From: Candidatus Poseidoniaceae archaeon
GTDB lineage: Archaea; Thermoplasmatota; Poseidoniia; Poseidoniales; Poseidoniaceae
Reading direction: 5' to 3'
Length of the DNA: 64,000 nt
Assembly (NCBI GenBank): GCA_965662895.1
Contig: CBFIJH010000010.1
Coordinates: 4,563 to 68,562, forward strand
Position 1 is the first letter of the stretch, and every line of letters starts with the position of its first letter. The notes beneath the pieces are model-generated. The model searched no databases. It was given only the letters and a program-made list of their open reading frames with translations, and was not told the DNA's origin. Position numbers and translations under genes: made by a program. This document shows, one piece after another, positions 7,229 to 26,988 of the stretch.

Positions 7229-7264
7229 CCGTGAACACCTCTATTCAAGTATGATTCAACGATC

Positions 7265-8413: not shown

Positions 8414-8434
8414 GTCATTTTCCTCCTTTTTTCT

Positions 8435-12106: not shown

Positions 12107-14907
12107 TGATCACCTTCCATCTGTCGTTGTTCTTTCTTCAACCAAGCCTTTCCTGCAAGACCGAGTTCTGCCAATTGTTCTGGAACTGGTTCAACTGCGG
12201 ATTTCCATCCTTCAACCTGGTCCTCGAGTGGTTGATTGGGGTCAAATCCGAACAATACGCCGTTTACGTAAGCAGTGGTATCTTCGCTTCGTTGCCGGCG
12301 ACGGTCCCGCTCTTTGTGCTCTGTACCACGTTCGACCAAGGTTGCTTGAAGAGGACTGTGCTCAAGTCGAGGCGTGGGCAATTCTGCCTCATCAATACCA
12401 CCAAGTTCCTTGGTTTTCGCCGATATTGCTTTCCACACAACGTCTGGTGTAAGCGGTAGGCTTCGAATTCGGACACCAATCGCATCGTAGACAGCGTTGA
12501 CAACAGCCGGTAGAATCGGTAAGAGTGGTCCTTCGCCCGCTTCTTTTGCTCCGAATGGCCCTTCCGGATCGGAGGATTCGACAATGATTGGCGTCACGTG
12601 AGGCATTTCATGAACGGATGGAATTTTGTATTCTAGGAGATTTGGGTTTTGAAGGTGACCTGTTCGACCATACACCATTTTCTCCGAAAGCACCTGCCCC
12701 AATCCCATGTGACACGAACCAATAATCTGGCCTTCAACTGCAAGCGGATTCAACGCTTTTCCACAATCGTGAGCAGCCCAGACATTCGTGCACGAGACCA
12801 AACCGGTTTCGACGTCGACATCGACTTCAGCAACATACGCTGAAAAGGAATATGCAGGGGCGAGGCCAGCCGCAGCACCTTTGTGCACACCACCCATCGG
12901 TGGAGAGCGATATGCACCGCTCGAAATCAAGGAGCCTTTGTCCTCTTGTGCCTTGTGCAGTGCTTCAAGGTAGGAAACTCCAACGGCAGGGTCGTGTTTG
13001 TAATAGATTCGCCGATCGTTCAAGACCAGAACATCTGGGTGGTAACCCAGTATTTCCCACGCTGCGTTGAGAAGCTTTTCGCGAATGTCAAGCGCAGCAC
13101 GAATTGCTGCATTTGCGTTCATGAAGGTGACTCTGCTCGAATAGGAGCCGAGATCTACCGGACTGGTATCGCTTTCGTGAGAACGGACGTGAATCATCTC
13201 AATTGGAAGTGCGAGGACCTCGGAGACAACTTGAGCCACCGCTGTTGTCGAACCTTGACCGATATCAGCTGCGCCTGTATGAACAGTGACTCCACCGTCC
13301 ATGTCAATTTGCATGTGAACTGTGGCATGAGGGAAACGGTTCGGGTCCCAGTGAATAGGAAGACCCGACCCTGAAATGAAGAAACCACAACCAATTCCTA
13401 TGCCCTTTCCAAGAGGCAATTGACGGAATTTCTCATCCCAATTCGAACCTTCTCTCACTCGTTCAAGCGCCTCCCTCATCCCGTTTGAGGTGATGCGGAA
13501 ACCTGAGATGGTTCGGCTGTGTGGTGGCAACAAGTTTGCAAGACGCAAATCGATGGGGTCAACCTGCATTTGTTCTGCCATTTCATCGAGACCCACTTCA
13601 ACAGCACATCGCGTGTTGACTGCTCCATGGCCTCGCATGGCTCCACTTGCAGGTTTGTTTGTCCAAACTCGAGCACCCGTGTAATGGAACGAACCAAGTT
13701 CATATGGAGCGGTTGCGAGAACGCCGTTGTAATAGGATGTGACGTGTCCGAAGGAAGCAAAACCACCTCCATCGATCAATGCATCGATATCAAAGCCCGA
13801 TATTCGAGCCTCTTCGTCAGCTGTCATCTTCACTTCGATGTAACTTGGATGACGTCCACGATTAATCCAATAGACCTCTTCTCGTGTAAAGTTGATTCGA
13901 ACTGGACGTCCTGCCTTTCGAGAGAGAATTGCAGCACACATCTCGTGTGGGAATGGGTCCGATTTTCCACCAAAACCTCCGCCAACGAAGGTTCGAATGA
14001 CGTTGATTTGATGCATTGGAACTTCAAGCACAGTCGAAAGTGCTCGATGCGCATAGTGAGGAACTTGCTGGGGCGTGTACAGTTGAAGTCGTCCGTTCGG
14101 GTCCCAATGAGCGACAACAGCATGAGGTTCTGTGAATCCATGATGGACACCCTCCATCCGCCATTTTCCATGCGATGATGCGGTTGGATCGTCAACCAAA
14201 CTGCGATCACCAAATTCTTGGAAAACCCGCTTTTGGACGTTGGTTGTACCGACGTGGTATTTTCCACGCCAGTGAATCGGTTCGTCTTGATCTTCAAGTC
14301 CTTTTCGCGGGTCGAAAATAGGATCGAGAACTTCCCATTCAATTTCGAACAGATTGAGCGCTTCCATTGCAGTTGCCTCATCGATAGCTGCAACACATGC
14401 GACTAAATCCCCTACGTGACGAACTTTCTCAACCGCCATTGCATGCTCGTCTTTGGTCACTGGAAGAACTCCGAACGTATTCGGCGCATCCGCTCCAGTG
14501 GCGACAGCTAAGACGCCCGGCAAGGCTTCAACTTTGGACGTATCAATCGACTTGATCTTTGCATAATGATGCGGAGAACGTAGAATTTTTCCAATAATCT
14601 CATTCGGTAATCGAACATCATCCCCGTACCATGCTTGCCCTGTCACTTTGGCGTGCGAATCGACCAAAGCACGAGGCTTTCCGACTTCCGTTCCCGTTCG
14701 GTATCGGTCATGGATGTGTGAACCTGCGGGTTGGGGTTCTTTTCCTCCAACAGATTCAGGAATCGAGTCAAGGTCTCGAGGAGCCATGTTTGGTCGAGAA
14801 CCTCCAGAACCAGGTGGCGGGAATTTCTGTTTCCCTGCAACACGCTTTCCATCCTTTCGGGTCTCACCCGAGGATGCGCCTGGCTGTTGTCGGTAACCCC
14901 CTGCCAT
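12103..14907 (-). CDS. molybdopterin-binding large subunit of xanthine dehydrogenase/CO dehydrogenase family (CoxL/XdhA-like), with Gly/Pro-rich N-terminal extension
   Basis: The conserved start GKPRALVDSHAKVTGQAWYGDD is present, along with GGGFGGK and a long Moco-binding domain. I placed the start at the ATG at 14907, 4 nt after the CoxS stop. The ORF-track extension to 15129 overlaps coxS in another frame. Confidence 0.8.
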   Translation of the reverse strand: MAGGYRQQPGASSGETRKDGKRVAGKQKFPPPGSGGSRPNMAPRDLDSIPESVGGKEPQPAGSHIHDRYRTGTEVGKPRALVDSHAKVTGQAWYGDDVRLPNEIIGKILRSPHHYAKIKSIDTSKVEALPGVLAVATGADAPNTFGVLPVTKDEHAMAVEKVRHVGDLVACVAAIDEATAMEALNLFEIEWEVLDPIFDPRKGLEDQDEPIHWRGKYHVGTTNVQKRVFQEFGDRSLVDDPTASSHGKWRMEGVHHGFTEPHAVVAHWDPNGRLQLYTPQQVPHYAHRALSTVLEVPMHQINVIRTFVGGGFGGKSDPFPHEMCAAILSRKAGRPVRINFTREEVYWINRGRHPSYIEVKMTADEEARISGFDIDALIDGGGFASFGHVTSYYNGVLATAPYELGSFHYTGARVWTNKPASGAMRGHGAVNTRCAVEVGLDEMAEQMQVDPIDLRLANLLPPHSRTISGFRITSNGMREALERVREGSNWDEKFRQLPLGKGIGIGCGFFISGSGLPIHWDPNRFPHATVHMQIDMDGGVTVHTGAADIGQGSTTAVAQVVSEVLALPIEMIHVRSHESDTSPVDLGSYSSRVTFMNANAAIRAALDIREKLLNAAWEILGYHPDVLVLNDRRIYYKHDPAVGVSYLEALHKAQEDKGSLISSGAYRSPPMGGVHKGAAAGLAPAYSFSAYVAEVDVDVETGLVSCTNVWAAHDCGKALNPLAVEGQIIGSCHMGLGQVLSEKMVYGRTGHLQNPNLLEYKIPSVHEMPHVTPIIVESSDPEGPFGAKEAGEGPLLPILPAVVNAVYDAIGVRIRSLPLTPDVVWKAISAKTKELGGIDEAELPTPRLEHSPLQATLVERGTEHKERDRRRQRSEDTTAYVNGVLFGFDPNQPLEDQVEGWKSAVEPVPEQLAELGLAGKAWLKKEQRQMEGDQ

Positions 14908-14911
14908 GAAA

Positions 14912-15514
14912 TCACCTCGCATGTCCTGGGGGCATCGACGGTTCATCTGGCCCTTCAGGATGTGGATTTGGATGCGGGTCAGTTGCAGGCGCAGGTGCAG
15001 GCGCATCACCACGTTTGATTTCTGCTGCTGCTTCAATCGAATCGAGAATCTGTTGATATCCCGTGCAACGGCAAAGATTTCCTTCGATAGCACATGCGAT
15101 TTCTTCTCGGGTTGGATTTTCATTTTCATTGAGAAGCGCCTCAGCGCTCATGAGGAATCCGGGAGTGCAAAATCCACATTGTGAACCACCATGTGTTGCA
15201 AAACAGGTCTGGATTGGAGCAAGATGGGCGCCGTCGGCAAGACCTTCAACAGTTGTAATTGCTTGCCCTTCGACTTGACCAGCAAGGCAAAGACACGACA
15301 GTCTCGGTTCACCATCAATCATCACTGCACAACAGCCACAGGTGCCCAAATCACAACCGCGTTTGACACCAAGCATTCCGACTTCGTCTCGCAACACATC
15401 AAGAAGAATTGCATTTGTTGGTGCAATGGCTTGGACCTCTTGACCGTTCACGACTGCAGACCATATGGACTTTGGAGCGGAAGGGATCATTGTGACGTGT
15501 TCTTTTCCAACCAT
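14912..15514 (-). CDS. [2Fe-2S] small subunit of molybdopterin dehydrogenase (CoxS family) with Pro-rich C-terminal tail
   Basis: The two Fe-S cysteine clusters are present (GCDLGTCGCCAV and CGFCTPGF...CRCTGY). The C-terminus is APAPAPATDPHPNPHPEGPDEPSMPP. The start may be 15514 or 15490. Confidence 0.85.
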   Translation of the reverse strand: MVGKEHVTMIPSAPKSIWSAVVNGQEVQAIAPTNAILLDVLRDEVGMLGVKRGCDLGTCGCCAVMIDGEPRLSCLCLAGQVEGQAITTVEGLADGAHLAPIQTCFATHGGSQCGFCTPGFLMSAEALLNENENPTREEIACAIEGNLCRCTGYQQILDSIEAAAEIKRGDAPAPAPATDPHPNPHPEGPDEPSMPPGHAR

Positions 15515-15580
15515 ACAACGCACCTGTGTTAACCTTGAGAACTCCGTCTATGAATGTAAGGATTCACTCCACTGCAACGA

Positions 15581-17584
15581 TTATGCCTTTTCATCCCAGA
15601 ATGGATTCTCTGACAGGTCTGAATCAACAGCATCAACAATTTGCGCATCAAGATAGGACTTGAGGCCTTTACCAGCGAGGCTGCCTTCTTCGCGTGATGA
15701 AATGGTCGAAACCAAAAGAAGAACGACGAGGAAGAGGAGAATTCCAGCAACAGAAAAACCGACGATGGCGCCTGTGGAGAATCCGTCTTCTGACGCAGGC
15801 ATCACCGGGCTCGTATCGTCACTCATCACCATGATTTCTGCAGTTACAAGTGGTGATGCTGAGGTTGTGCCATCTTGGTACTGGACGCCGCGCAGTGAAA
15901 TCGTATGGTTGCCCATGATGGCAATGCCGGGCAAATGCTCGATTTGGTGAATGATGTCAATGATCGACAACTCACCTGTCGGCGATCCTGGTTCGTAGGT
16001 GTGAATGTTTGACCAATCATCGCGAAGATGATTGCTTCTCCATTGCACTGTTTCCATGTCCTCACTCACCTCAAAAGAGATGCTATCTCCACGCTCAAGA
16101 TGGATTCGGTTGTCAAGCGTTGTCGGCGTTGAAATCGTTACACTAAGGTTCGAATTGAACACATAATCACGTTCTGCAGCTTCAAGAAGCGCGTCAAGTG
16201 CACGAACTTCTCCGTGTCCGTATACGTTGTTTTGTCGATTCTTTGGAATCAAATCTTCAGCACAAGGCTCGTTGGCAGCCATGTAGTGACATTGGCGGTA
16301 TGTCGCTGTTTCTTGCATAATATTGCGAATGTCAAATGGCGAGAGGTCTGGATTTGCTTGCAACATGAGCGCAGCTACGCCAGCAGCCCCGGGTGTTGCC
16401 ATGCTGGTACCACTGAATGCGACATAACCATCACCGGTATTGTGGGCCACTGACATGACGTCTGAGCCTACATAGGCGATGTTTGGTTTAATTCGACCTT
16501 CTTCTGTTGGACCTTGACTGCTGTAAATGGCAATGCTTGAGTCTTTGTCCAAAGCTCCGACTGTGATGGCATCTTCTGCGCTTCCGGGAGTACCGATTTG
16601 AGCAGAGAAAGCGCTGTTTCCTGCTGCAATGAAGAGCGCGATGCCGGCGCGAACCATCTCGTTTGCATAACGGTTCACGCTGTCCTCTTCAGAAGATGTC
16701 CATTCGATTGCACCGGGGCCTCCAAGGCTCATTGATGCAGCGCGAATGTTGAATTCGTATCGCTTCTCAACGGTCCATTCCATTCCGGCCATGACAGTGG
16801 CAAACGAACCGCTTCCACCAGAATCGAGGACCTTAACACCAACCAACGAGGCTTGTGGAGCCATGCCAGGATGTTCGTAAGTTGGTGCACCAGTTCCTGC
16901 AGTCGTTCCAGCACAGTGCGAACCATGGCCTTGGTCATCGTAAGGGTACACCTCGGTACCGTTGGTCAGGCTAGGATTGTTGACTGGATCGTAGAAGGCG
17001 ATGACTTTCGGATCGTATGTGGCAGGATCATCATCTTGGTCGTCAAGACTGGAATGATTGCCATCGATTCCTGTGTCGATAATCGCTACTGTCGTTCCAG
17101 AACCGTCGTATCCTGTTTGAGCCCATGCGGTATCAACTCCATGAAGCACAGCAGCATCACCGTTTGCAACCGTCAAAATTCCATCAAGTTCGAGCATAAC
17201 AACCCCAGGTAACTGAGAAGTTTCGAGAACATTGCCTACCGGAACACGACCTGCAAGGGCATCAATTCCCTCAAGCGTCCATTGGTGTCGATAGTCAACA
17301 TGTTCTTGCAGCATTGCAATCTCTGCATCACCAGGCGTAAACGAGAAATCGATGATGAGTGGAAGCGTCTTTTCATCATCGAGGAAGAGTGGATTCTTTT
17401 GGTGCACCTCGATCATGTCACCGATTCCGTTTCCGTCTCGGTCGACGGTCGTCTCTACCCACCAGCCTTCTTCTTCCGATTCTTCAGGGGTTGCAACAGG
17501 TACTGTGGCCAAAACTGTCGGAAGTACAAACATGGCCAGACAGAGAATTGGTAACGTCAAACGTGGCATCTTCATACGGCTCAT
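15581..17584 (-). CDS. subtilisin-like serine protease (peptidase S8) with signal peptide and C-terminal TM anchor plus cytoplasmic tail
   Basis: The Asp/His/Ser triad motifs are present (VAIIDTGIDGNH, HGSHCAGT, GTSMATPGAAG). There is an N-terminal signal peptide and a C-terminal hydrophobic segment (AGILLFLVVLLLV). Confidence 0.85.
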   Translation of the reverse strand: MSRMKMPRLTLPILCLAMFVLPTVLATVPVATPEESEEEGWWVETTVDRDGNGIGDMIEVHQKNPLFLDDEKTLPLIIDFSFTPGDAEIAMLQEHVDYRHQWTLEGIDALAGRVPVGNVLETSQLPGVVMLELDGILTVANGDAAVLHGVDTAWAQTGYDGSGTTVAIIDTGIDGNHSSLDDQDDDPATYDPKVIAFYDPVNNPSLTNGTEVYPYDDQGHGSHCAGTTAGTGAPTYEHPGMAPQASLVGVKVLDSGGSGSFATVMAGMEWTVEKRYEFNIRAASMSLGGPGAIEWTSSEEDSVNRYANEMVRAGIALFIAAGNSAFSAQIGTPGSAEDAITVGALDKDSSIAIYSSQGPTEEGRIKPNIAYVGSDVMSVAHNTGDGYVAFSGTSMATPGAAGVAALMLQANPDLSPFDIRNIMQETATYRQCHYMAANEPCAEDLIPKNRQNNVYGHGEVRALDALLEAAERDYVFNSNLSVTISTPTTLDNRIHLERGDSISFEVSEDMETVQWRSNHLRDDWSNIHTYEPGSPTGELSIIDIIHQIEHLPGIAIMGNHTISLRGVQYQDGTTSASPLVTAEIMVMSDDTSPVMPASEDGFSTGAIVGFSVAGILLFLVVLLLVSTISSREEGSLAGKGLKSYLDAQIVDAVDSDLSENPFWDEKA

Positions 17585-17680
17585 GTTTAGGCCAAGAATT
17601 CCTAAGGTTTGAACTCTTTCAATCCGAGTGTTAAAAATTCAATCTGAAATGCTACTTGGGGTATTAATGCTGGGTGTTGT

Positions 17681-17688
17681 TTTATATC
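17681..17688 (+). promoter_or_regulatory. candidate TATA box (tttatatc) for the giant membrane protein gene
   Basis: It is an AT-rich octamer about 30 nt upstream of the first ATG (17717). It lies in the divergent intergenic region between the subtilase and the membrane protein. Confidence 0.3.
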
Positions 17689-17689
17689 C

Positions 17690-20600
17690 TTGACCTCGGA
17701 TGTCTTGCCGATTCAAATGCCGGCACCACAGAGGAAACCCCAGCAAATGGTCTCAATAGCAAACGACGCTATTTTTGCCAGTGAAGAGGAAGAAATACCG
17801 TTCAAGCCCGTCATCGTCCGGGCTCCAGGCGATACGAAAGGCGATTCACTCGAACGATTTACTGAAATCATCATGTTTGGCGTTGCAATGCTTGCAATAT
17901 GGACAGGACTTTTGGGAATCGCATTCAGTGAGAATGTGGGTGAAGAAAAATTCATGATTCTCTTCATTGGAGGTTTTGCCTCCTCCGCTATTGCTCTGTT
18001 TATGGTCGAGTTGCAAGCAAAGAAGAACGAGTATCGACTCATGATTTCTCAAAATTATCTCTTGGGTGTTTCGTTCTTCTTTATGGCAGTTGGAACACTT
18101 TGGGGCCTTCGATTCTTGGGAGGATATTTTACCCTACAAGGGTTTGAATTCGATGGAAGTGAATTTACCTTCCTCGGTGATGTTGGTTTCGATGATGCAG
18201 AAAACGAGATGTTCCTTGCCGGCCCGAATATGATTTACGTTCAGGCACTGGGAGCTGCGGCGATGTGGTTCGTGCATCGACGAATCCTTGATCGATACAA
18301 AGGTGACACGTCTTTTGGTTGGGCAGTGGCAAGTTACATCCCACTCGGATTGTTGCTCGTTGGTGTTGGCACTTGGATTGATTGGGCCAATAACGAAGTT
18401 TCCTACCCGCTTGGGATATCGATTGTCGGTTTGTGCGGTCTTGCGATGTACAGCGCATTGATGTCGAATAAATCCATCAATTTCGCAGTCGTTAGCGTCG
18501 TTTCAGGATTTATTCCCATCCTCTATGAAATCCTCAACGAAAACGCACCTCCTGGCGGCGAAGGTGGCGCAGTTTCGCTGCTTGTTTTCATTATCATCAT
18601 TCAAGGATATCTTGCAGGAAATGAACGTTTGAAGCAAACACTGGCTGAGAAAATGTCCTTCTTCATGATTGGAGCTGTTGTCATTGCAATGCTCATCGCG
18701 AGCATTCAAAATTGGAATCTTATCCTTGGCCCATTCAAACCAAACGAACTTGGAAGCGATGGTTTGGCGTCGTTGGTCACCCTCCCGGTTGCGCTTTGGA
18801 TTACCGTCTTGTGCGCCTATTTCCCCGCAACGCACAGAAACAGGGTTCCTGCAATGCCAATTGGACTGGCGTTCTCGTTGTGGACACTCAATGGCGATGA
18901 AGCAATTCTTCCTTGGGTCATCTCCATGGTTATGATATCGTACATGCTCTTTTTTGCCGAAGCAACCCGAAAATGGGTTGCAAACTTTACCATGTCTGCT
19001 CTGGCCTTCTCTTACCTTTTCAGCGACCAGATCGGATACGGTGTTGACCAAGTCGAGATGGATGCTGCGATTGCAATAGGCATCGTCATTATCGCCGAAA
19101 CGGCTCGGCGACTCGAAAAAGTATCAATTTGGAGCAGTGTACAAACCGTCACATTCATCGCACTCAGCAGCACAATTCTCGATTCGCCGTATTGGTTTGT
19201 TACCTGGCTGTTCGTGATTTACCTTCTCGGCATGGTCTACGAGTCAATGCTCAGGGCTCGAAAAGGAGACGATATGGAAAAGCGTAATGCCACGCTTGCA
19301 CTTCTCACGTCCCTGATTGTAAGCTCAGGACTGTTGTTGGCCAAGAAACTCGAAATTCCAGATGCGTACCAAATTGCTGGATTGAATGGCCTCTCTCTGG
19401 AATACCTGGTCCTCGGCGTGATTGTATATGCAATCTTCAACACTGTTCGCGATGTCGAAGTCGACATCGGTCGATTGTTATCGCTTCTTGAAACGAAGGC
19501 TTCAGGAGCATACACCTACGATTCTGAGACAAATGCATGGTACATCAAAGAGAAGCACGTCAAAGAAAAGGATGAAGTGGCAGCGACTGAAGAGGGTTCA
19601 TTCGGATCGATTGGCCGTATTTCACTTGCATTTTCGCTGTTGGCAGTAACAATTGGTATCAGCACACTCGATTCCTCCTTGCTGGAAGGTGACACATTCT
19701 ATCTCGTCGGGTTGTACATTATACCAATCGGTATCCTGTTTTGGGAAATCAATTCGATGGACGTCCTTTCCTCGCAAAGCCGGATGGTCGGGGCGTTTAT
19801 GTTGCTCATTGTTGCTGCCTCATCGATGCCAATGATGCTCCAAGTTGATCCCTCAGATGGGTTGTTTCGGGCAGGTATTTTGTATGACCTCATTTTCTTG
19901 TCAGCCCCGATTGGAGCCTTCGTCCTGATCAACAAACGAGGACTTGACAGAGATCATCTCAGCCGCCCCGCCGATCAGGTCATGCTTTGCGTCCTTTTGG
20001 TCATCGGAATGATGGACCAATCCGGCGGTTTACTCTTCCTCAGCATGTACGGTCTTGTTGCCTTAGTGGCGCTCCAATACCGACATCATGGCGTGACGAT
20101 GCTGGCACCAATAGCGACCATCTCGATGCATTGGCTAGGAGACCACGGCCTCGTATATTCTTTCTTGGATTCGTTCATTTTCTCAAATCCGGATCACATT
20201 TCAGAGATTCGAGTCCTTTGGTTTACGCGTGTTACTGGGATGCTTGTTGCTGCACACATGTTGATGCCAATGGCATGGAGCATTCTTGACCTTCAAAAGG
20301 ACGAATATGTGGAAAACCCATTCCCTTGGTTCTTACCCATGGTCTGGTTCTTGTTTGCAGTGTGGGCTGTTCTCCCAACTGCATCATGGTTGCCTCTCGT
20401 CGCATGTATCTTTGGCCTCCTGAACTCTTGGGTTCGTGGCGACATTAATCTTGTACCACTGCTGTCAGTTGGAATCATTTTCTCGTTCATGATTGGATTT
20501 ACAGATGGAGGATACTTCACTGGAGAAATCTTTGGCTATTCCATGCTCTTCTCTGGCATCATCATTTACCTGCTTTGGTTCGCGAATTCCCGTGGAATAA

Positions 20601-21718
20601 TGGAAATGAACGTCGTTGACAAAGCTCGATTGGATGCACTCATGCCTTACTCTCTCGATACGCAATTGCGTTTCCTTACGATTGCCACGCTTCTCCTTTC
20701 TTTCGATGTCGTCAACGGCATGGGTATGCTGGCAGGAAGCGGCTGGGCAACGTATGAAGCCATTCAGAAAGGCGACAAGATATCCATTCTCTTCCTACCA
20801 CTCATCGACGGTCTGACAGCTGCGAATCTGATCAATCAGTTTGAAATCGGCTCCGAGTCGATGCAGAGTTTCCTCATCGGTGGAATCTTCTTCATTGAAG
20901 GTGCTGTCATGATCTATCTCTCTTCGAGAACTGACAGCATCTATGATTCAGAGATCTTCGAATGGAAGGACGATGATGAATTCTTCAACTTCATTGAGTA
21001 CATGGGATTCTCGGGCGTTGCGTCGGCATTGACGGGTGTCATTTACGCCTTTGGAGAGGACCAAACAAACCTTGCATTCTTCCTTACAGCATTGATTCTT
21101 ACAGGACTCGCCATCACTGGTTTTGATAAATCACAAGCAGAAGTACGCTGGCGTCGAGGACTCGGCGTGTTTGGTTCAGTCCTCACATTGTTCATGCTGT
21201 TTTTGAGATTGGATGAGAACTCCGATGATGTATTGTTCAAGTACCTCACACTTGTTATCATCGGCTTGCTTGCGCTTGGATATGGTTTCCTTTACATGCA
21301 GCGAAGGTCAACTTACGACGTGCGAGATGTTGCCATTCCACAAGTCTTTGGTAATGTTGTTCCGAAAGCTCAACGCCAATCCTCTCCAAAACAGTCGAAA
21401 GATGAGGAAGAAGAGGTTGTTGAAGAGGAAGAAGAGGTTGTTGAAGAAGAAAACAACATGACTGTTGAAGAAAAGGAAATCCTCGAATTGGATGAAGCAT
21501 TCGAAGACGAATTGGATGAAATTATCGAGCCAATTGGTAATGCAACCACGGAAAACATTGGTTACATCGAGACCATGGAAGGATTCGATGTCCGTCTACC
21601 AAAGGAATCGATCGAACAAATCACTCGAACCATTGCAATGACACCTCATGAAGGGTTCAAACCGGTTGTTCGAGTCAACATGCTCGGACAAATCGTTCTC
21701 GACTTTGAACCAATTTGA
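17690..21718 (+). CDS. giant polytopic integral membrane protein (~1340 aa, >30 predicted TM helices) with acidic C-terminal soluble region; unknown function
   Basis: It is a single uninterrupted ORF. The track start is TTG at 17690, and the first ATG is at 17717. Hydrophobic helices occur throughout. The C-terminus carries EEEEVVEEEEEVVEEE followed by a ~100-aa soluble segment. Confidence 0.7.
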   Translation: MTSDVLPIQMPAPQRKPQQMVSIANDAIFASEEEEIPFKPVIVRAPGDTKGDSLERFTEIIMFGVAMLAIWTGLLGIAFSENVGEEKFMILFIGGFASSAIALFMVELQAKKNEYRLMISQNYLLGVSFFFMAVGTLWGLRFLGGYFTLQGFEFDGSEFTFLGDVGFDDAENEMFLAGPNMIYVQALGAAAMWFVHRRILDRYKGDTSFGWAVASYIPLGLLLVGVGTWIDWANNEVSYPLGISIVGLCGLAMYSALMSNKSINFAVVSVVSGFIPILYEILNENAPPGGEGGAVSLLVFIIIIQGYLAGNERLKQTLAEKMSFFMIGAVVIAMLIASIQNWNLILGPFKPNELGSDGLASLVTLPVALWITVLCAYFPATHRNRVPAMPIGLAFSLWTLNGDEAILPWVISMVMISYMLFFAEATRKWVANFTMSALAFSYLFSDQIGYGVDQVEMDAAIAIGIVIIAETARRLEKVSIWSSVQTVTFIALSSTILDSPYWFVTWLFVIYLLGMVYESMLRARKGDDMEKRNATLALLTSLIVSSGLLLAKKLEIPDAYQIAGLNGLSLEYLVLGVIVYAIFNTVRDVEVDIGRLLSLLETKASGAYTYDSETNAWYIKEKHVKEKDEVAATEEGSFGSIGRISLAFSLLAVTIGISTLDSSLLEGDTFYLVGLYIIPIGILFWEINSMDVLSSQSRMVGAFMLLIVAASSMPMMLQVDPSDGLFRAGILYDLIFLSAPIGAFVLINKRGLDRDHLSRPADQVMLCVLLVIGMMDQSGGLLFLSMYGLVALVALQYRHHGVTMLAPIATISMHWLGDHGLVYSFLDSFIFSNPDHISEIRVLWFTRVTGMLVAAHMLMPMAWSILDLQKDEYVENPFPWFLPMVWFLFAVWAVLPTASWLPLVACIFGLLNSWVRGDINLVPLLSVGIIFSFMIGFTDGGYFTGEIFGYSMLFSGIIIYLLWFANSRGIMEMNVVDKARLDALMPYSLDTQLRFLTIATLLLSFDVVNGMGMLAGSGWATYEAIQKGDKISILFLPLIDGLTAANLINQFEIGSESMQSFLIGGIFFIEGAVMIYLSSRTDSIYDSEIFEWKDDDEFFNFIEYMGFSGVASALTGVIYAFGEDQTNLAFFLTALILTGLAITGFDKSQAEVRWRRGLGVFGSVLTLFMLFLRLDENSDDVLFKYLTLVIIGLLALGYGFLYMQRRSTYDVRDVAIPQVFGNVVPKAQRQSSPKQSKDEEEEVVEEEEEVVEEENNMTVEEKEILELDEAFEDELDEIIEPIGNATTENIGYIETMEGFDVRLPKESIEQITRTIAMTPHEGFKPVVRVNMLGQIVLDFEPI
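21407..21448 (+). repeat. 2 x 21-nt tandem repeat (gaagaagaggttgttgaagag) encoding EEEVVEE units
   Basis: Direct tandem duplication in the acidic tail of the giant membrane protein. Confidence 0.8.
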
Positions 21719-23095
21719 TTATTCATCCTTGAAGATTGCAATGCGATCTGAGACAAGAGTCTCAACGGTTGCAGTAGGGTAGAGACCCCAGTAGGCTTCA
21801 CGGGCTTCTTGATTGATGTTCATGCAAAGAACAACATCACCGGGCCGGTCATCCATCGCTTGTGTTCCGTTAAGATGCATGAGCATTGGTTCAATGTTGG
21901 ACATGTTGACAACACCCCAACCCACCTGAGTGCATGGAGCAACAGGTGAAACTGGCGTGGTTCCAGACAGGGGATCCCACGTTGCAAACGAAGGATACCA
22001 TGCAGACAAATTCAATGCATTACGAACCTCTGCGTTTCGAATGGTGAAGGATTCACCATCACTCGTCGTTCCGTTAACGAGATAACCGCCTCGTTCTGTC
22101 GAAGCACCAGAACTGACATCATTGAATTCTTCTCGAAGTTCTTGAAGAATGAAGGAGAGAATACCAGCGGTTCGAGGCGTTGCAAAGGACGTCCCTGACG
22201 TCTCGTGGTAACCGTCTGTATCGTCATGATTTGGCAACACTTGTGTCCAATCGGCTGCAATATCTGGATAGGAACCACTCATGGTCTCTTTCTGGTCGTC
22301 GCCTTCCTCAGCGTATCCTGCAATACCAATGGACCATGGTGGACCCGCAGTTGCATCTTGAACGGCCGGTGAAGGTGTGTTATCAGCGGCACCAGTGTGA
22401 ATCTTGTTGTTGCCCACAACTGCTTCGTATGTCCCTGTCTCAATTCCTGGTACTGGAAGCGAACCAATCGCACCAAACGACGTGGAAATGATGTCAACAA
22501 GGGGTTGATTCGAAGCGGCCAGAACGGCTTCGGTTGAGAAACCTTCAACAAAGAAAATGACTGCATCTGGGTTTGCGTCCAAAACTGCACCCGTAACCGC
22601 CGTTCCGTGTCCATCTGAAGGGTCGTCAAGAATGTGGATATCCGTGCCTCCATCAGGCGATGTTCCAATGATTTTCGTTCCGTAAAAGTACACAATATCG
22701 GATGTCGTGATGTTATCCCAACAGTATTCTTTATCGGCTTGATATCGCTCTTCCCATGAACCTTCGAGCGTGATGTAGCACGTTTTGGTCACACCAAGCG
22801 ATTCAAGCAACCAGTTTGGATAGACCTCGTCGGTACGGAAATGATCGTGATAAACGTTGATACCCGTATCAACAGGTGCTACAACAGAGTAGTGCCTCCA
22901 ATCCGTATCTAAGTTAGCCTCTCCACTTCTGCTTTGGGTTTCATCCGCATCATCCCATGTCATTTGCCAGTAAACCAATGAGCCCGCAAGACCGAGAAGA
23001 ATGACAACGAGTAACGTACGTATTTTAGCAAAGAAAACCCAGAAGTCAAACACTTCAACACCGACATCAAGTAGGACATCAGCAGCATCGACCAT
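21719..23095 (-). CDS. divergent subtilase-like serine peptidase (S8 family) with N-terminal TM anchor
   Basis: The triad-like motifs are present (VAPVDTGINVYHDH, DGHGTAVTG, GTSFATPRTAG). There is an N-terminal hydrophobic anchor. It is convergent and abutting (0-nt gap) with the giant membrane protein gene. Confidence 0.7.
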   Translation of the reverse strand: MVDAADVLLDVGVEVFDFWVFFAKIRTLLVVILLGLAGSLVYWQMTWDDADETQSRSGEANLDTDWRHYSVVAPVDTGINVYHDHFRTDEVYPNWLLESLGVTKTCYITLEGSWEERYQADKEYCWDNITTSDIVYFYGTKIIGTSPDGGTDIHILDDPSDGHGTAVTGAVLDANPDAVIFFVEGFSTEAVLAASNQPLVDIISTSFGAIGSLPVPGIETGTYEAVVGNNKIHTGAADNTPSPAVQDATAGPPWSIGIAGYAEEGDDQKETMSGSYPDIAADWTQVLPNHDDTDGYHETSGTSFATPRTAGILSFILQELREEFNDVSSGASTERGGYLVNGTTSDGESFTIRNAEVRNALNLSAWYPSFATWDPLSGTTPVSPVAPCTQVGWGVVNMSNIEPMLMHLNGTQAMDDRPGDVVLCMNINQEAREAYWGLYPTATVETLVSDRIAIFKDE

Positions 23096-23165
23096 GCCAA
23101 AGCCTGTGACATCACCATCAAGAAGCCTACGCCGACTTCAAGAACCGAATTCTCTTCGCAAAAGC

Positions 23166-23714
23166 ATGGACGACCCCAACAAACGAATGGTATGGATTGA
23201 CCTTGAAATGACTGGTTTGGATTTGGAACGTGAAAGCATTATTGAAATTGCGACAATCATTACCGATTCTGAACTCAACATCATTGTAGAAGGACCAAAT
23301 CTTGCGATTTCAGTGTCTGAGGAACTCATTGAAGGGATGGATGAGTGGAATACGCGACATCATTTTGGAAGTGGATTAATCGATCGAGTTCGGAACAATT
23401 CCGTCAGTTTGGAAGAGGCTGAGCGCCAAACACTTGAGTTCATCCAGCAATATGTTCCAAGAAGAACCGCACCACTTTGTGGCAACTCAGTATGGAACGA
23501 CCGCCAATTTCTCGCTAAAGAGATGCCCAAGGTAGCGGATTACTTGCATTATCGCATGGTTGATGTCTCAACCATCAAGGAACTGGCTCGACGTTGGTAT
23601 CCAGAGCTACCCAAGTTTGAGAAAAAAGGGGCGCATCTTGCTCTCGATGATATCCGAGAATCTGTGTTTGAACTCGTTCACTTCCGAGAACATCTGTTCA
23701 TCGACCGTCCGTGA
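23166..23714 (+). CDS. orn: oligoribonuclease (DEDDh 3'-5' exonuclease)
   Basis: MVWIDLEMTGLD (Exo I motif with DxE), NSVWNDRQFL and the C-terminal H...D motifs are present. I moved the start to the ATG at 23166 to avoid overlap with the upstream convergent gene. The track ORF starts at 23001. Confidence 0.8.
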   Translation: MDDPNKRMVWIDLEMTGLDLERESIIEIATIITDSELNIIVEGPNLAISVSEELIEGMDEWNTRHHFGSGLIDRVRNNSVSLEEAERQTLEFIQQYVPRRTAPLCGNSVWNDRQFLAKEMPKVADYLHYRMVDVSTIKELARRWYPELPKFEKKGAHLALDDIRESVFELVHFREHLFIDRP

Positions 23715-24789: not shown

Positions 24790-25659
24790 TCATTGGTCTC
24801 GCCAATTTGGAGCATGTACGTCGGCATCTTTGTGCATTGCCAATATTTCAGCAAGAACGGCAATGGCAATCTCTTCAGGCGATTCAGCACCAATGTTCAA
24901 TCCAATTGGGCATCGTACTTTGTCAAGCGTTGAGGATTGAATTCCAACTTCGATGCACGATTCCGTGAACGATTTCCACTTTGACCGACTACCGATAGCT
25001 CCAATGCGAGGAAAAGCCTTGCCATCGGGTGAAACGTCCGCAGCCTCTGCAAGTTGGAGTAGCCGTTGCAGTCGATCAAGATCTTCGGAGTAATCGTGCC
25101 CAAGCAAAAGAACATCTGAAAATCGCATCATTGATTCAACCGTTTCTCCTGAGAAAAATTCATCCACAGTTGAATGAGATCGTTCGATAGCCTCTGGATA
25201 GAGTTCACTCGTTGTGAACGGTTCACGAGTGTCTTGAACAGAGTAATTCCATCCCTTTTTTGGCAAGAGTTTGGTGATGGCTTCTGAGCAGTGTCCCCCT
25301 CCCATCAGTAGAATGTGTGGCATCGGTAGCATCAACTCAAGAGAAATGGTGACTTGTCCACCACAAAGTGAGTCGAGTGGTTGCACTTCATAGCCCTTCG
25401 CCCCTTTATTCAGACCAAAGGTGTGGACCTCAGATGTCGATTTTGATTGATGGATTAATTCTTTGCAGCGAGTGAGAATTCGATGTTCCAAACCGGCCCC
25501 TCCCACAGTTCCTACCCAGTTCTCGGACCGATTCATGGCCAAGCGTGCTCCAGATTTCCCAGGCACACTTCCTTTGGTCGCAACAACGGTAGCGAGAACA
25601 ACGGGCGAATTGTTTTGCAGTTGTTCCAACATCCATGCTAGAACCCTCGCCGTCATGGT
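24790..25659 (-). CDS. XdhC/CoxI-family molybdenum-cofactor insertion chaperone
   Basis: An XdhC_CoxI N-terminal region is followed by a Rossmann-like XdhC C-terminus (LLMGGGHCSEAI...IGAIGSRSK). Confidence 0.7.
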   Translation of the reverse strand, partial: TMTARVLAWMLEQLQNNSPVVLATVVATKGSVPGKSGARLAMNRSENWVGTVGGAGLEHRILTRCKELIHQSKSTSEVHTFGLNKGAKGYEVQPLDSLCGGQVTISLELMLPMPHILLMGGGHCSEAITKLLPKKGWNYSVQDTREPFTTSELYPEAIERSHSTVDEFFSGETVESMMRFSDVLLLGHDYSEDLDRLQRLLQLAEAADVSPDGKAFPRIGAIGSRSKWKSFTESCIEVGIQSSTLDKVRCPIGLNIGAESPEEIAIAVLAEILAMHKDADVHAPNWRDQ

Positions 25660-25692
25660 AGCGCCTCCATGAACACACACATACGATTTGCG

Positions 25693-26277
25693 CTAGAACC
25701 AATCTTCCTCTGATGCGGCGAGAAGGGCCGTCAAGTCAGGCTCAGTGTCGATGTTGAGGTGAAGCCACTTGAACTCGACAAGTAGAGGCTCTCTTCGGAC
25801 CAAAGAGGAGAGTGGGGCATCACGTTCAGCCAGATAAACGGTATTGATGTCCTCTCCTACAAGAACAAGTGGATGGCCGCCGCGTTGGTTCCATACTGGA
25901 CAAGCGCTGATGTCCGACTTCAACAGGTCTTGAACTAGTTCAATACTCCAACCTGGTCGATCTACAGGTGCGATGAGCACCTTTCGGGGCAATCGGCCAT
26001 TTCGCTCGAGAATGCTTGCAAGTCCGCATTGAATCGACCCTGTTCGACCTTTTTCAGGGTCAGGGTTCAGAACAACTTGAGCAGAGGGACATTGAAGCAC
26101 AATGTCTGCAAGAAGGTCGGTGTTGGTCACGATTGTCACCTCAACATACTTCAGACGAAGCAATCTGCTCACAAGTCGTTGAATCAAGGACTGGCCATGG
26201 ACATCGACAAGAGCCTTTGGTTGACCGAGACGAGAAGAGCGACCAGCCGCTATGAGAATCACATCGATGGCGCCCAT
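25693..26277 (-). CDS. molybdenum cofactor cytidylyltransferase / MobA-like NTP-transferase (MocA)
   Basis: IDVILIAAGRSSRLGQPKAL is the MobA-like nucleotide-binding N-terminus. I placed the start at the internal Met to avoid a non-conserved N-extension. Confidence 0.7.
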   Translation of the reverse strand: MGAIDVILIAAGRSSRLGQPKALVDVHGQSLIQRLVSRLLRLKYVEVTIVTNTDLLADIVLQCPSAQVVLNPDPEKGRTGSIQCGLASILERNGRLPRKVLIAPVDRPGWSIELVQDLLKSDISACPVWNQRGGHPLVLVGEDINTVYLAERDAPLSSLVRREPLLVEFKWLHLNIDTEPDLTALLAASEEDWF

Positions 26278-26343
26278 GTTCCAACGATGAACGGAACGAT
26301 GTTGACAATTTCGGTTCATATACCGTGGGTATGAGATGGAATT

Positions 26344-26988
26344 GTGCTTCAAGACATCGAACCTACTCCACATGAGAAATCTCTGCGGTTTCTTCGCGAT
26401 GTTTGCGCAATGGATGGCATTGAGTTAACCGAATCAGAATCGACTCCAAGCATCACGGTTCGAGTGAGAGGACGTTCAAGACGTCATTATGAGATTTTAG
26501 CCTCACGTCAAGTCGGAATCCTCGTCGATGAACCGTGGACGACGGAAATCACAGCTGCAGCATGGAAAAGTGACTTGATGTCGGAGCAGTCGCGTGCTTA
26601 CACGGCAAAGCTGTGTCTGAATATCCATCGCGAAAAGGAGCATCTCCCATTAGGGGATCAACTCGCTGCCCTCGCACTTAGCCTCCATAACGACATTCAA
26701 TTGGCAATGGACATTGCACTCGTCGCTCAGTTTATTGTTTGCCCAAGGGACGAACTCCTGAATGTCCATATCTTTCAAGATGAAATGGTTGTGACTGAAG
26801 AAATGATTGAAAATGGTGGTCCAAGTATTGATGTGAGTTTTGATGAAGGATTCGAATACGAGGATTTTTTCCAACACCTTTGCCCAGTCCATGAGCCTGA
26901 ACATCTTGACCTTGAATTGGGCAGCAGTAATTGGGCTCAAGACTTGGAAGATGATCTTATGCAGCGTTACGAACGAATGAACATCTAA
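26344..26988 (+). CDS. hypothetical acidic protein
   Basis: A 214-aa ORF fills an otherwise empty interval. I recognise no motifs. The start could be the downstream Met (MDGIEL). Confidence 0.35.
   Translation: MLQDIEPTPHEKSLRFLRDVCAMDGIELTESESTPSITVRVRGRSRRHYEILASRQVGILVDEPWTTEITAAAWKSDLMSEQSRAYTAKLCLNIHREKEHLPLGDQLAALALSLHNDIQLAMDIALVAQFIVCPRDELLNVHIFQDEMVVTEEMIENGGPSIDVSFDEGFEYEDFFQHLCPVHEPEHLDLELGSSNWAQDLEDDLMQRYERMNI

What the first reader, a model, noticed from the sequence alone, without database searches (positions are those of the whole stretch)
15581..23095. Two membrane-anchored subtilases bracketing a 1342-aa, >30-TM membrane protein of unknown function
A C-terminally anchored S8 protease (15581-17584, minus strand) is transcribed divergently from a giant polytopic membrane protein (17690-21718). 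A second, N-terminally anchored S8-like peptidase (21719-23095) abuts that protein's 3' end with zero spacing. A single protein with this many helices and an acidic EEEVV-repeat C-terminal domain matches no transporter or biosynthetic family I can recognise. The arrangement suggests a surface-proteolysis or protein-export/processing system centred on the giant membrane protein.
Basis: partly seen in the sequence, partly recalled or inferred. Interest (0 to 1): 0.7.

Follow-up and report, generated by a model that had tools for sequence, protein, structure and literature searches.

The report
Orphan ~37-helix archaeal membrane protein
A marine Group II archaeon encodes a 1,333-residue membrane protein with about 37 membrane-spanning helices and no detectable relatives outside its order; it often sits between two ordinary membrane-tethered subtilisin-type proteases, but that pairing is not obligatory.

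Summary
All three genes are real. S8a (15581-17584, minus) is a standard subtilase with a signal peptide and a C-terminal membrane anchor. S8b (21719-23095, minus) is a divergent subtilase with an intact catalytic triad and an N-terminal anchor. The giant gene probably starts at ATG 17717, giving 1,333 aa. It has about 36-38 conserved hydrophobic helices, an acidic linker and a 50-aa conserved C-terminal mini-domain.

The organism is a Poseidoniaceae (Marine Group II) archaeon. The giant protein occurs across the order Poseidoniales. It matches nothing in Pfam, NCBIfam or PDB sequences. In 1.84 billion representative proteins, only 179 matched, and every one checked is a family member or a fragment of one.

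AlphaFold models resemble only soluble or designed helical-repeat solenoids, not any membrane-protein fold.

Of 63 related loci assessable on both sides, 44 keep both proteases, 7 keep only S8a and 12 have neither. The last group includes the genus Poseidonia and the family Thalassarchaeaceae. The trio also sits inside a larger conserved gene block, and S8b is convergent with the giant gene, so it is not co-transcribed.

The "protease system" idea is only partly supported. The giant protein is a true orphan. My best guess, at low confidence, is a membrane-embedded helical scaffold.

The parts
15581..17584 (-). S8a: a subtilase with a signal peptide, pro-region, S8 catalytic domain, C-terminal beta-rich region, one TM anchor (residues 607-625) and a 42-aa acidic cytoplasmic tail
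   Evidence: Pfam PF00082 at E=2e-51. The best PDB sequence match is 3afg, Tk-SP of Thermococcus kodakarensis, at 8.5e-50.
17585..17716 (.). 132-bp divergent intergenic region. It contains the palindrome TTGAACTCTTTCAA (17609-17622) and a TATA-like TTTTATAT (17680-17687) about 30-37 nt upstream of the giant gene's ATG.
   Evidence: The sequence is. The TATA-like element and the 'TGATT' just before the ATG recur in homologous loci, including S8-less ones. The palindrome sits at -108/-109 in the 58-85%-identity loci that carry it (23 of 26 examined) and at -102 in L007 and L038. Overall it occurs in 25 of 65 loci, against 0.016 expected per 220 nt.
17717..21718 (+). Giant orphan membrane protein of 1,333 aa, counted from the conserved ATG. 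The mechanical ORF begins at TTG 17690.
   Evidence: Full-length homologues of 98% to 27% identity occur only in Poseidoniales. Pfam, NCBIfam and PDB give no hit.
17846..21307 (+). Membrane-embedded region (residues 53-1206 in ORF numbering). It has about 36-38 helices joined by very short loops and two small beta-hairpins (about residues 163-177 and 608-619).
   Evidence: The full AlphaFold model has pLDDT 75 and pTM 0.53. The model of residues 40-470 has pLDDT 88 and pTM 0.87.
21308..21553 (+). Basic juxtamembrane stretch followed by a variable acidic low-complexity linker, predicted cytoplasmic. It contains a 21-nt tandem duplication at 21404-21451.
   Evidence: The cytoplasmic location is inferred from the positive-inside rule (QRR...K..R...K..K directly after the last helix).
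21554..21715 (+). Conserved C-terminal mini-domain of about 50 aa (IET..GF.[IV]RLP......I..TI..TPH.GF.PV.....G...L.FEP)
   Evidence: It is conserved from 98% to 30% identity, including in Thalassarchaeaceae homologues. It has no Pfam match.
21719..23095 (-). S8b: a divergent subtilase with an N-terminal signal-anchor helix (residues 18-36) and no recognisable pro-domain. It is convergent with the giant gene.
   Evidence: Pfam PF00082 scores 28.4 bits against a cut-off of 21.8. D76, H163, N239, S303 and four Cys are invariant in orthologues. PDB sequence matches are weak only; the best is Tk-subtilisin at 0.0075.

Best explanation
These are three separately transcribed genes of a Poseidoniaceae (Marine Group II) archaeon, not an obligate three-part machine.

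Shown:
- S8a and S8b are subtilases with complete catalytic residues, each held at the membrane by a single helix.
- The giant protein defines an orphan family found only in Poseidoniales. It has about 36-38 TM helices, very short loops, its own promoter-like element, and no sequence or predicted-fold relative among known membrane-protein families.

Inferred:
- By the positive-inside rule, both protease domains face outward. They most likely digest extracellular protein, in line with the proteolytic lifestyle proposed for this group.
- Both ends of the giant protein, including the acidic linker and the C-terminal mini-domain, are cytoplasmic.
- The AlphaFold models stack successive up-down helical hairpins like a solenoid. 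Order-wide conserved residues are mainly Trp, Gly, Pro and interfacial Arg. On this basis I think the protein is most likely a membrane-embedded structural or organising scaffold (a helical-repeat 'wall' in the bilayer) rather than a transporter or enzyme. Its cytoplasmic mini-domain would act as a docking site.
- The link to the proteases is inherited synteny within part of Poseidoniaceae. There may be shared regulation of the divergent S8a-giant pair through a conserved palindrome. At most, the scaffold optionally hosts the proteases' single anchors.

My confidence in the descriptive claims is about 0.85. My confidence in the scaffold role is about 0.3.
For: - ORFs and domains.
- Taxonomy and family range.
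- No known family: Pfam on the whole protein, on five pieces and on 26 members; NCBIfam; PDB profile search. A profile search of 1.84 billion representatives gave only 179 hits; those I checked by name are Poseidoniales or unclassified Thermoplasmatota/Euryarchaeota 'hypothetical proteins', and about 25 clusters are full length.
- Conservation: 76 columns are conserved at >=77%, dominated by W, G, P and L. Only R141, S323 and D733 are polar and lie mid-helix.
- Own promoter-like element, also present in S8-less lineages.
- Neighbourhood counts: with contexts.
- A subtilase is reported among highly transcribed MGII protease/peptidase genes (PMC9723583).
Against: - The scaffold role is inferred from negative evidence and from a predicted structure. 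The full-length model has pTM of only 0.53.
- AlphaFold may idealise hairpin packing when the alignment is shallow (34-46 sequences).
- A conserved buried Asp (D733), the invariant R-x-P-x-MPIGLA short-helix motif (residues 385-394) and D-x-SGG (776-780) could mark an active or ion-binding site, which would favour a transporter or enzyme.
- S8a stays next to the giant gene in 57 of 71 assessable loci, even where it has been inverted (L061, L084) or where an acyltransferase gene has been inserted beyond it. The shared palindrome also hints at a real functional link.
- The AlphaFold-database fold libraries were unavailable, and no profile-profile search against Pfam or PDB could be run. Remote homology is therefore not excluded.
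Confidence: 0.5

Rival explanations
1. The giant protein is the hub of a surface-proteolysis or protein export/processing complex. S8a and S8b dock on it through their single TM helices, much as the membrane-anchored subtilase mycosin sits on the ESX/type VII secretion membrane complex.
For: - The trio is kept in 44 of 63 fully assessable loci, across giant-protein identities from 85% down to about 32%.
- S8a remains adjacent even after inversion (L061, L084).
- The S8a-giant intergenic region carries a conserved palindrome.
- Both proteases are membrane-anchored.
- The best NCBIfam partial hit for both proteases is T7SS mycosin.
Against: - 12 of 63 loci have neither protease and 7 lack S8b. 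L076 and L078 keep the giant gene in the same slot without either protease.
- Poseidonia-like and Thalassarchaeaceae homologues sit among unrelated genes.
- The adjacency is part of a larger syntenic block.
- S8b is convergent with the giant gene.
- The mycosin scores are 83.6 and 22 bits against a cut-off of 278.75, so neither protease qualifies.
- No ATPase, EccB/C/D-like or substrate genes lie nearby.
- The giant protein has almost no extracellular surface for protease domains to act on or bind.
Confidence: 0.2
2. The giant protein is a new kind of transporter or channel, for example for ions, peptides released by the ectoproteases, or lipids. The conserved short-helix motifs would form the permeation or binding site.
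For: - The protein is massively polytopic.
- The invariant R385-x-P-x-MPIGLA motif forms a 12-residue short helix that could be re-entrant.
- D776-x-SGG is conserved in a loop between helices.
- A conserved Asp (D733) and Pro (P740) lie mid-helix.
- Its location beside proteases would suit peptide uptake.
Against: - Pfam and NCBIfam give no transporter match, even at E<=10 on pieces of the protein.
- There is no internal duplication or inverted repeat of the kind typical of secondary transporters. The self-alignment score of 82.7 is matched by a reversed-sequence control at 76.0.
- Very few conserved polar residues lie inside helices.
- No ATPase or binding-protein partner genes are nearby.
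Confidence: 0.2
3. The giant protein acts like Piezo, as a curvature-sensing or mechanosensitive membrane protein built from serial TM hairpin units.
For: - Its helix count of about 37-38 is similar to Piezo's 38 (the Piezo figure is from my own knowledge).
- The models show serial hairpin stacking.
- A structural or mechanical role would suit a possibly wall-less planktonic archaeon. This is speculation.
Against: - No Piezo Pfam domains were found.
- No sequence-level repeat unit was detected.
- There is no recognisable pore module or large extracellular cap.
Confidence: 0.05
4. The giant protein is a very divergent GT-C-type glycosyltransferase, polymerase or flippase involved in building the cell envelope.
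For: Large polytopic archaeal proteins of unknown function often turn out to be envelope-biosynthesis enzymes (general knowledge). The protein is restricted to one lineage and evolves fast, as surface-related functions often do: 27-85% identity against 62-92% for its neighbours.
Against: - No Pfam or NCBIfam match to any GT-C, Wzy or flippase family.
- There is no conserved acidic motif in an early outward-facing loop, and no sizeable outward-facing soluble domain.
- No glycosylation genes are nearby in any of the five gene contexts seen.
Confidence: 0.05

Closest known systems
Tk-SP / subtilisin-like serine proteases of Thermococcus kodakarensis (PDB 3afg), MEROPS family S8
   Same: S8a shares the S8 catalytic domain (phmmer E=8.5e-50, residues 111-428 aligned), the Asp/His/Asn/Ser catalytic residues and an extra C-terminal region after the catalytic domain.
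   Different: S8a has a C-terminal TM anchor and an acidic cytoplasmic tail. S8b is far more divergent: its best PDB E-value is 0.0075, it is anchored at the N-terminus and it has no recognisable pro-domain.
Mycosin (MycP) of ESX / type VII secretion, a membrane-anchored subtilase associated with a polytopic membrane complex
   Same: It is a single-pass-anchored S8 protease encoded next to polytopic membrane proteins. It is also the best partial NCBIfam hit.
   Different: The scores of 83.6 and 22 bits are far below the 278.75-bit cut-off. No EccB/C/D/E, FtsK-type ATPase or WXG100 genes are present. The host is an archaeon. The adjacency is not conserved wherever the giant protein occurs.
Piezo mechanosensitive channels (eukaryotic, 38 TM helices)
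   Same: The number of TM helices in a single chain is comparable, and both are built from serial helical units.
   Different: There is no sequence, Pfam or predicted-fold match. No detectable repeat unit exists. The protein is half Piezo's size, has almost no extramembrane domains and is prokaryotic.
Soluble alpha-solenoids (HEAT/ARM/TPR) and de novo designed helical repeat proteins (e.g. PDB 5k7v, 8ga7, 8g9k)
   Different: Those proteins are water-soluble, whereas here every helix is hydrophobic and long enough to span a membrane. Sequence identity is 4-10%, so the resemblance is geometric and not evidence of homology.
Poseidoniales-specific hypothetical protein families (Meheust et al. 2022, PMC9258230)
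   Same: That study reports 199 protein families consistently associated with Poseidoniales, and notes that lineage-specific hypothetical proteins are often membrane proteins. This protein fits that category.
   Different: The paper text and supplements I searched do not describe this family or its size and helix count.

Membership tests
Peptidase S8 (subtilase): S8a | Match to the Pfam PF00082 model above its gathering score | tested here: met
   175.4 bits against a cut-off of 21.8, covering the full-length model 1-288
Peptidase S8 (subtilase): S8a | Catalytic Asp-His-Ser in that order, plus the oxyanion Asn | tested here: met
   D170 (IIDTG), H220 (HGSHCAG), N323 (AAGNS) and S394 (GTSMATP)
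Peptidase S8 (subtilase): S8b | Match to the Pfam PF00082 model above its gathering score | tested here: met
   28.4 bits against a cut-off of 21.8, a marginal pass. PDB subtilases match only weakly, at E=0.0075 or worse.
Peptidase S8 (subtilase): S8b | Catalytic Asp-His-Ser plus the oxyanion Asn, conserved in orthologues | tested here: met
   D76, H163, N239 and S303 are invariant in 8 orthologues of 61-83% identity
Type VII secretion mycosin (TIGR03921) | Score above the NCBIfam equivalog cut-off | tested here: not met
   S8a scores 83.6 bits and S8b 22 bits, against a cut-off of 278.75
Type VII secretion mycosin (TIGR03921) | Neighbouring ESX core genes (EccB/C/D/E, WXG100 substrates) | tested here: not met
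   The flanking genes are a CoxS/L/M-like dehydrogenase, an RNase T-like exonuclease, an OYE flavoprotein, XdhC and others
Any curated membrane-protein, transporter or enzyme family (Pfam-A, NCBIfam): giant protein | Significant profile match | tested here: not met
   No family matched the whole protein. Five sub-fragments gave none at E<0.01; the weak matches listed at E<=10 are all far below their cut-offs. None of 26 order-wide members matched.
Any solved membrane-protein fold (PDB): giant protein | Sequence-profile or structural similarity to a solved membrane protein | tested here: not met
Piezo | Repeated 4-TM units and a C-terminal pore module; Piezo Pfam domains | tested here: not met
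   No Pfam hit. The self-alignment signal equals the reversed-sequence control. No Piezo chain appears in the fold-search lists.
Conserved gene-neighbourhood module (S8a-giant-S8b) | Co-location wherever the central gene occurs | tested here: not met
   44 of 63 loci have both proteases, 7 have S8a only and 12 have neither. Thalassarchaeaceae and Poseidonia-like contexts are unrelated.
Polytopic membrane protein with >30 TM helices | More than 30 hydrophobic helices long enough to span a membrane | tested here: met
   32 clear helices plus about 6 short ones from AlphaFold DSSP with hydropathy. About 37 conserved hydrophobic segments in the order-wide alignment. DeepTMHMM and TOPCONS were not available.

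The most novel reading that the evidence does not exclude
The giant protein is the first example of a natural membrane-embedded alpha-solenoid. It would be a single chain of about 19 stacked TM hairpins forming a long wall or arc in the bilayer of one of the ocean's most abundant archaeal groups. It would act as an integral membrane skeleton or platform that organises single-pass ectoenzymes such as S8a and S8b and recruits cytoplasmic partners through its C-terminal mini-domain.
Probability: 0.2. Interest if true: 0.8.

Novelty: categorically new. Interest (0 to 1): 0.55.

Why it matters
Poseidoniales are among the most abundant planktonic archaea and have never been cultured. What we know of their cell envelope and of how they degrade protein comes almost entirely from gene annotation.

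A single-chain protein with about 37 TM helices is rare in prokaryotes. This one occurs in both families of the order, yet has no relative in Pfam, NCBIfam, the PDB or 1.84 billion representative proteins. That makes it a well-defined piece of membrane-protein 'dark matter'.

If the predicted solenoid-like stacking of TM hairpins is correct, it would be an architecture so far seen mainly in designed proteins. It would also be a good cryo-EM target.

The negative result is useful too. The two flanking subtilases are ordinary membrane-tethered ectoproteases, and their link to the giant protein is lineage-restricted synteny. They should not be annotated as a dedicated 'system'.

The novelty claimed here is at the level of protein family and predicted fold. 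No new mechanism has been shown.

Tried and rejected
1. Internal sequence repeats in the giant protein. hhalign self-comparison of the 21-sequence alignment found nothing. With the order-wide alignment, a shift of about 112 residues scored 82.7 (Prob 94%), but the reversed-sequence control scored 76.0 (Prob 92%). The signal is compositional, so I rejected it.
2. Pfam on five overlapping fragments at E<=10 gave only noise. Pfam on 26 diverse members gave nothing, and NCBIfam gave nothing.
3. A PDB sequence-profile search gave only E>=0.5 noise.
4. The AlphaFold-database fold libraries (afdb50, afdb_sample) were not installed.
5. I looked for domain fusions in distant members. The 1,812-aa variant P0287 has no Pfam domain.
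6. A viral origin or a phage-carried copy: there are no relatives in IMG/VR contigs.
7. A homologue search with S8b returned only close orthologues of >=75% identity, so it said nothing about where distant S8b relatives sit.
8. I looked for features of the giant protein that track protease presence, such as the outward beta-hairpins. The second hairpin is kept in the S8-less P0108 and lost in some other lineages, so there is no correlation.
9. Literature searches found only general statements about MGII peptidases and lineage-specific hypothetical families.
10. tRNA and Rfam scans of the window found nothing.
11. The TTGAA-N3-6-TTCAA palindrome as a window-wide regulatory motif: there are 6 matches against 1.2 expected, but by their coordinates the other five appear to fall inside ORFs listed. 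Only its conserved position upstream of the giant gene is noteworthy.


Full report
**Observation**

S8a (15581-17584, minus strand, 667 aa) is a clear subtilase. Its Pfam Peptidase_S8 match is E=2e-51. Its closest solved relative is Tk-SP of Thermococcus kodakarensis (3afg, E=8.5e-50). It has an N-terminal hydrophobic signal segment and a C-terminal TM helix at residues 607-625, followed by a 42-aa acidic tail. The catalytic residues D170, H220, N323 and S394 are present.

S8b (21719-23095, minus strand, 458 aa) passes the Pfam S8 cut-off only narrowly, at 28.4 against 21.8 bits. It has one N-terminal TM helix. In eight orthologues of 61-83% identity, D76, H163, N239, S303 and four cysteines are invariant. 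It therefore looks catalytically competent and is strongly conserved.

The central ORF (17690-21718, plus strand) has no Pfam or NCBIfam match.

- All homologues start at M10 (MPAPxR). A TATA-like TTTTATAT lies about 30-37 nt upstream of that ATG and overlaps the TTG. The real start is therefore almost certainly ATG 17717, giving 1,333 aa.
- S8b is convergent with the giant gene. The stop codons abut, so zero spacing does not mean co-transcription.

**Helix count**

- A strict single-sequence hydropathy scan gives 24 peaks.
- AlphaFold helices filtered by hydropathy give 32 clear TM helices plus about six shorter ones.
- Hydropathy averaged over an order-wide alignment gives about 37 conserved hydrophobic segments.

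Loops are mostly under 10 residues. The N-terminal 50 residues and the stretch after the last helix (QRR...K..R..K..K) are basic, while several alternate loops are acidic. By the positive-inside rule, both ends are therefore cytoplasmic. This is an inference. '>30 TM' is confirmed within the limits of these methods.

The C-terminus has two parts. The first is a variable acidic low-complexity linker, which in this genome contains a 21-nt tandem duplication at 21404-21451. The second is a conserved mini-domain of about 50 aa.

**Who has it**

The best hits carry names such as Candidatus Poseidoniaceae or 'Euryarchaeota archaeon UBA443'.

A scan of one genome per GTDB species returned 79 loci. 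Nearly all are labelled Poseidoniales or Poseidoniaceae, or more loosely as Thermoplasmatota, Methanobacteriota or Euryarchaeota archaea. Two contigs are binned into bacterial MAGs.

An exhaustive HMMER profile search of 1.84 billion cluster representatives found only 179 proteins. About 25 are full-length clusters of 1,218-1,390 aa, one is 1,812 aa, and the rest are fragments. The most distant clusters are named Thalassarchaeaceae or 'Thermoplasmatota archaeon', and all are annotated as 'hypothetical protein'. They are colinear with the window protein from the N-terminal helices to the C-terminal mini-domain.

The family therefore spans both families of the order and was not detected outside it. 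It evolves much faster than its neighbours. Where the giant protein is 27-38% identical, S8a, S8b, the ferredoxin-like subunit and the exonuclease are 62-78% identical.

**What it resembles**

It resembles nothing known.

Sequence searches:
- The PDB profile search gave E>=0.5.
- Pfam on fragments and on 26 diverse members gave nothing.

Structure predictions:
- The AlphaFold model of residues 40-1215 has pLDDT 75 and pTM 0.53.
- A model of the best-conserved N-terminal third (residues 40-470), built from a more diverse 46-sequence alignment, is confident, with pLDDT 88 and pTM 0.87.

Fold searches:
- Foldseek returns TPR/HEAT proteins with TM-scores of 0.1-0.3.
- No natural membrane-protein family appears in any top list.

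The resemblance is geometric: successive up-down hairpins stacked side by side, at 4-10% identity. I read this as a predicted 'transmembrane solenoid'. Two caveats apply. AlphaFold may idealise such packing, and the AlphaFold-database libraries could not be searched.

No internal sequence repeat exists. An apparent shift match of about 112 residues (score 82.7) is reproduced by a reversed-sequence control (score 76.0).

Order-wide conserved positions are dominated by Trp, Gly, Pro, Leu and interfacial Arg. The only conserved mid-helix polar residues are R141, S323 and D733. The most striking motifs are R385-x-P-x-MPIGLA, which forms a 12-residue short helix, R427-x-W, D776-x-SGG and W1154-R-R.

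**Is it a three-gene system?**

In the window and most Poseidoniaceae the gene order is: CoxM/L/S-like dehydrogenase, then an acyltransferase in some lineages, then S8a(-), giant(+), S8b(-) and an RNase T-like exonuclease(+). The trio is thus part of a larger syntenic block.

Counts across related loci:
- 57 of 71 loci with enough upstream sequence have S8a next to the giant gene.
- 50 of 71 loci with enough downstream sequence have S8b.
- Of 63 loci assessable on both sides, 44 have both, 7 have S8a only, none has S8b only and 12 have neither.

These loci are phylogenetically related, so the counts do not represent independent events.

Informative exceptions:
- L019, L036, L060, L067 and L086 lost S8b, and the exonuclease lies directly downstream.
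- L076 and L078 have neither protease, although the giant gene still sits between the ferredoxin-like gene and the exonuclease.
- L061 and L084 have S8a inverted but still adjacent.
- In the 43-45%-identity clade, which includes a 'Poseidonia sp.' MAG, the gene lies either between an aminotransferase or TauE gene and SRP19, or between a DNA methylase and SAM synthetase.
- In Thalassarchaeaceae it lies between RNase PH and a cold-shock protein.

No region of the giant protein tracks protease presence. The giant gene carries its own TATA-like element and a 'TGATT' just before the ATG in all of these contexts.

One point favours a link. A palindrome, TTGAAC/GTCTTTCAA, sits at -108/-109 from the giant ATG in the 58-85%-identity loci that carry it (23 of the 26 examined). 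That position is about 25 nt upstream of the S8a ATG. A similar palindrome sits at -102 in the S8-less L007 and L038. Overall it occurs in 25 of 65 loci, against 0.016 expected per 220 nt. This could be a regulator site shared by the divergent pair.

**Most likely mechanism**

Shown: two catalytically intact, single-pass-anchored subtilases, and an orphan protein of about 37 TM helices with its own promoter-like element.

Inferred: the protease domains face outward (positive-inside rule; conserved cysteines in S8b). They contribute to the extracellular protein degradation proposed for MGII. A subtilase is listed among highly transcribed MGII protease genes in PMC9723583.

For the giant protein I commit, at about 0.3, to a structural or organising role. 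On this view it is a membrane-embedded helical-repeat scaffold whose cytoplasmic mini-domain docks partners. The supporting points are the solenoid-like prediction, the scarcity of conserved polar residues within the membrane, the absence of transporter-type internal symmetry, the near-absence of extramembrane domains and the fast sequence drift.

A novel transporter or channel is the main rival at about 0.2, because of D733 and the two conserved short motifs. Piezo-like mechanosensing and GT-C-like enzymology are at about 0.05 each.

**Comparison with known systems**

- S8a is a new member of family S8, close to Tk-SP.
- S8b is a divergent S8 member.
- Neither is a mycosin, since their scores are far below the cut-off and there are no ESX genes.
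- The giant protein fails every membership test I could run.
- It fits the category of Poseidoniales-specific hypothetical membrane families noted by Meheust et al. 2022 (PMC9258230), but I found no description of it there.

**Verdict**

The 'system' interpretation is only partly supported. The central protein is a true orphan with an unusual predicted architecture. I score interest at 0.55. The protein is rare and unexplained, and it occurs in an ecologically dominant lineage. However, its function is unknown and the structural claim rests on prediction.

Noticed in passing
window 17609-17622: The perfect palindrome TTGAACTCTTTCAA lies in the S8a-giant intergenic region. It is conserved at -108/-109 from the giant ATG in the 58-85%-identity loci that carry it (23 of 26 examined). 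A similar palindrome (TTGAACTTGATTCAA at -102, plus a second at -65) occurs in the S8-less loci L007 and L038. It may be a transcription-factor site.
   Followed up: partly
window 21404-21451: A 21-nt tandem duplication (2.3 copies, 96% match) encodes the EEEEVVE repeat in the acidic linker of the giant protein. The linker varies in length and sequence between homologues.
   Followed up: yes
window 11126-15523 and 24790-26373: The trio, an RNase T-like exonuclease and an OYE flavoprotein sit between the structural genes of a CoxS/L/M- or xanthine-dehydrogenase-type molybdoenzyme and its likely maturation genes (XdhC-like, NTP_transf_3/MobA-like). The mechanical 1008-aa ORF for the large subunit (12103-15129) overlaps the ferredoxin-like subunit ORF (14912-15523), and homologues are 934-939 aa.
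   Followed up: partly
window 23001-23714: The RNase T/oligoribonuclease-like ORF as listed overlaps the 5' end of S8b by 95 nt. Homologues are 182-204 aa, so the true start is probably Met56 (about 23166). That would leave a divergent intergenic region of about 70 bp with S8b.
   Followed up: partly
window 54439-61104: A 2,221-aa ORF carries FG-GAP repeats at its N-terminus and is probably a giant surface or adhesion protein. Two ORFs beside it (51726-52973 and 53103-54377) have the same lengths, 415 and 424 aa, as the SAM synthetase and AdoHcy hydrolase that flank the giant membrane gene in the rearranged locus L007. I did not run domain searches on these two window ORFs.
   Followed up: no
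L012 (CAXQWT010000088.1) and L035 (CALDQY010000030.1): Contigs carrying this archaeal locus at 78-80% protein identity are deposited in MAGs labelled Salipiger bermudensis and Rhodobiaceae bacterium. This is probably binning contamination in public assemblies.
   Followed up: no
L007:8790-9239: In the Poseidonia-like lineage, the C-terminal linker of the giant protein carries a Cys/His-rich insertion (CSQVGCSALAYRSTDFCLRH). It could be a small zinc-binding element and is absent from the window protein.
   Followed up: no
L051 and L057 (both from MAG SI034_bin128): One MAG holds two contigs, each with a copy of the S8a-giant locus at similar identity. This could be strain heterogeneity, a duplicated assembly or a real paralogue.
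   Followed up: no
window 5915-10033: Genes encoding DUF58 and DUF4350/ABC_transp_aux-like proteins lie upstream. The arrangement resembles a MoxR/BatA-type cluster and is unrelated to this finding.
   Followed up: no
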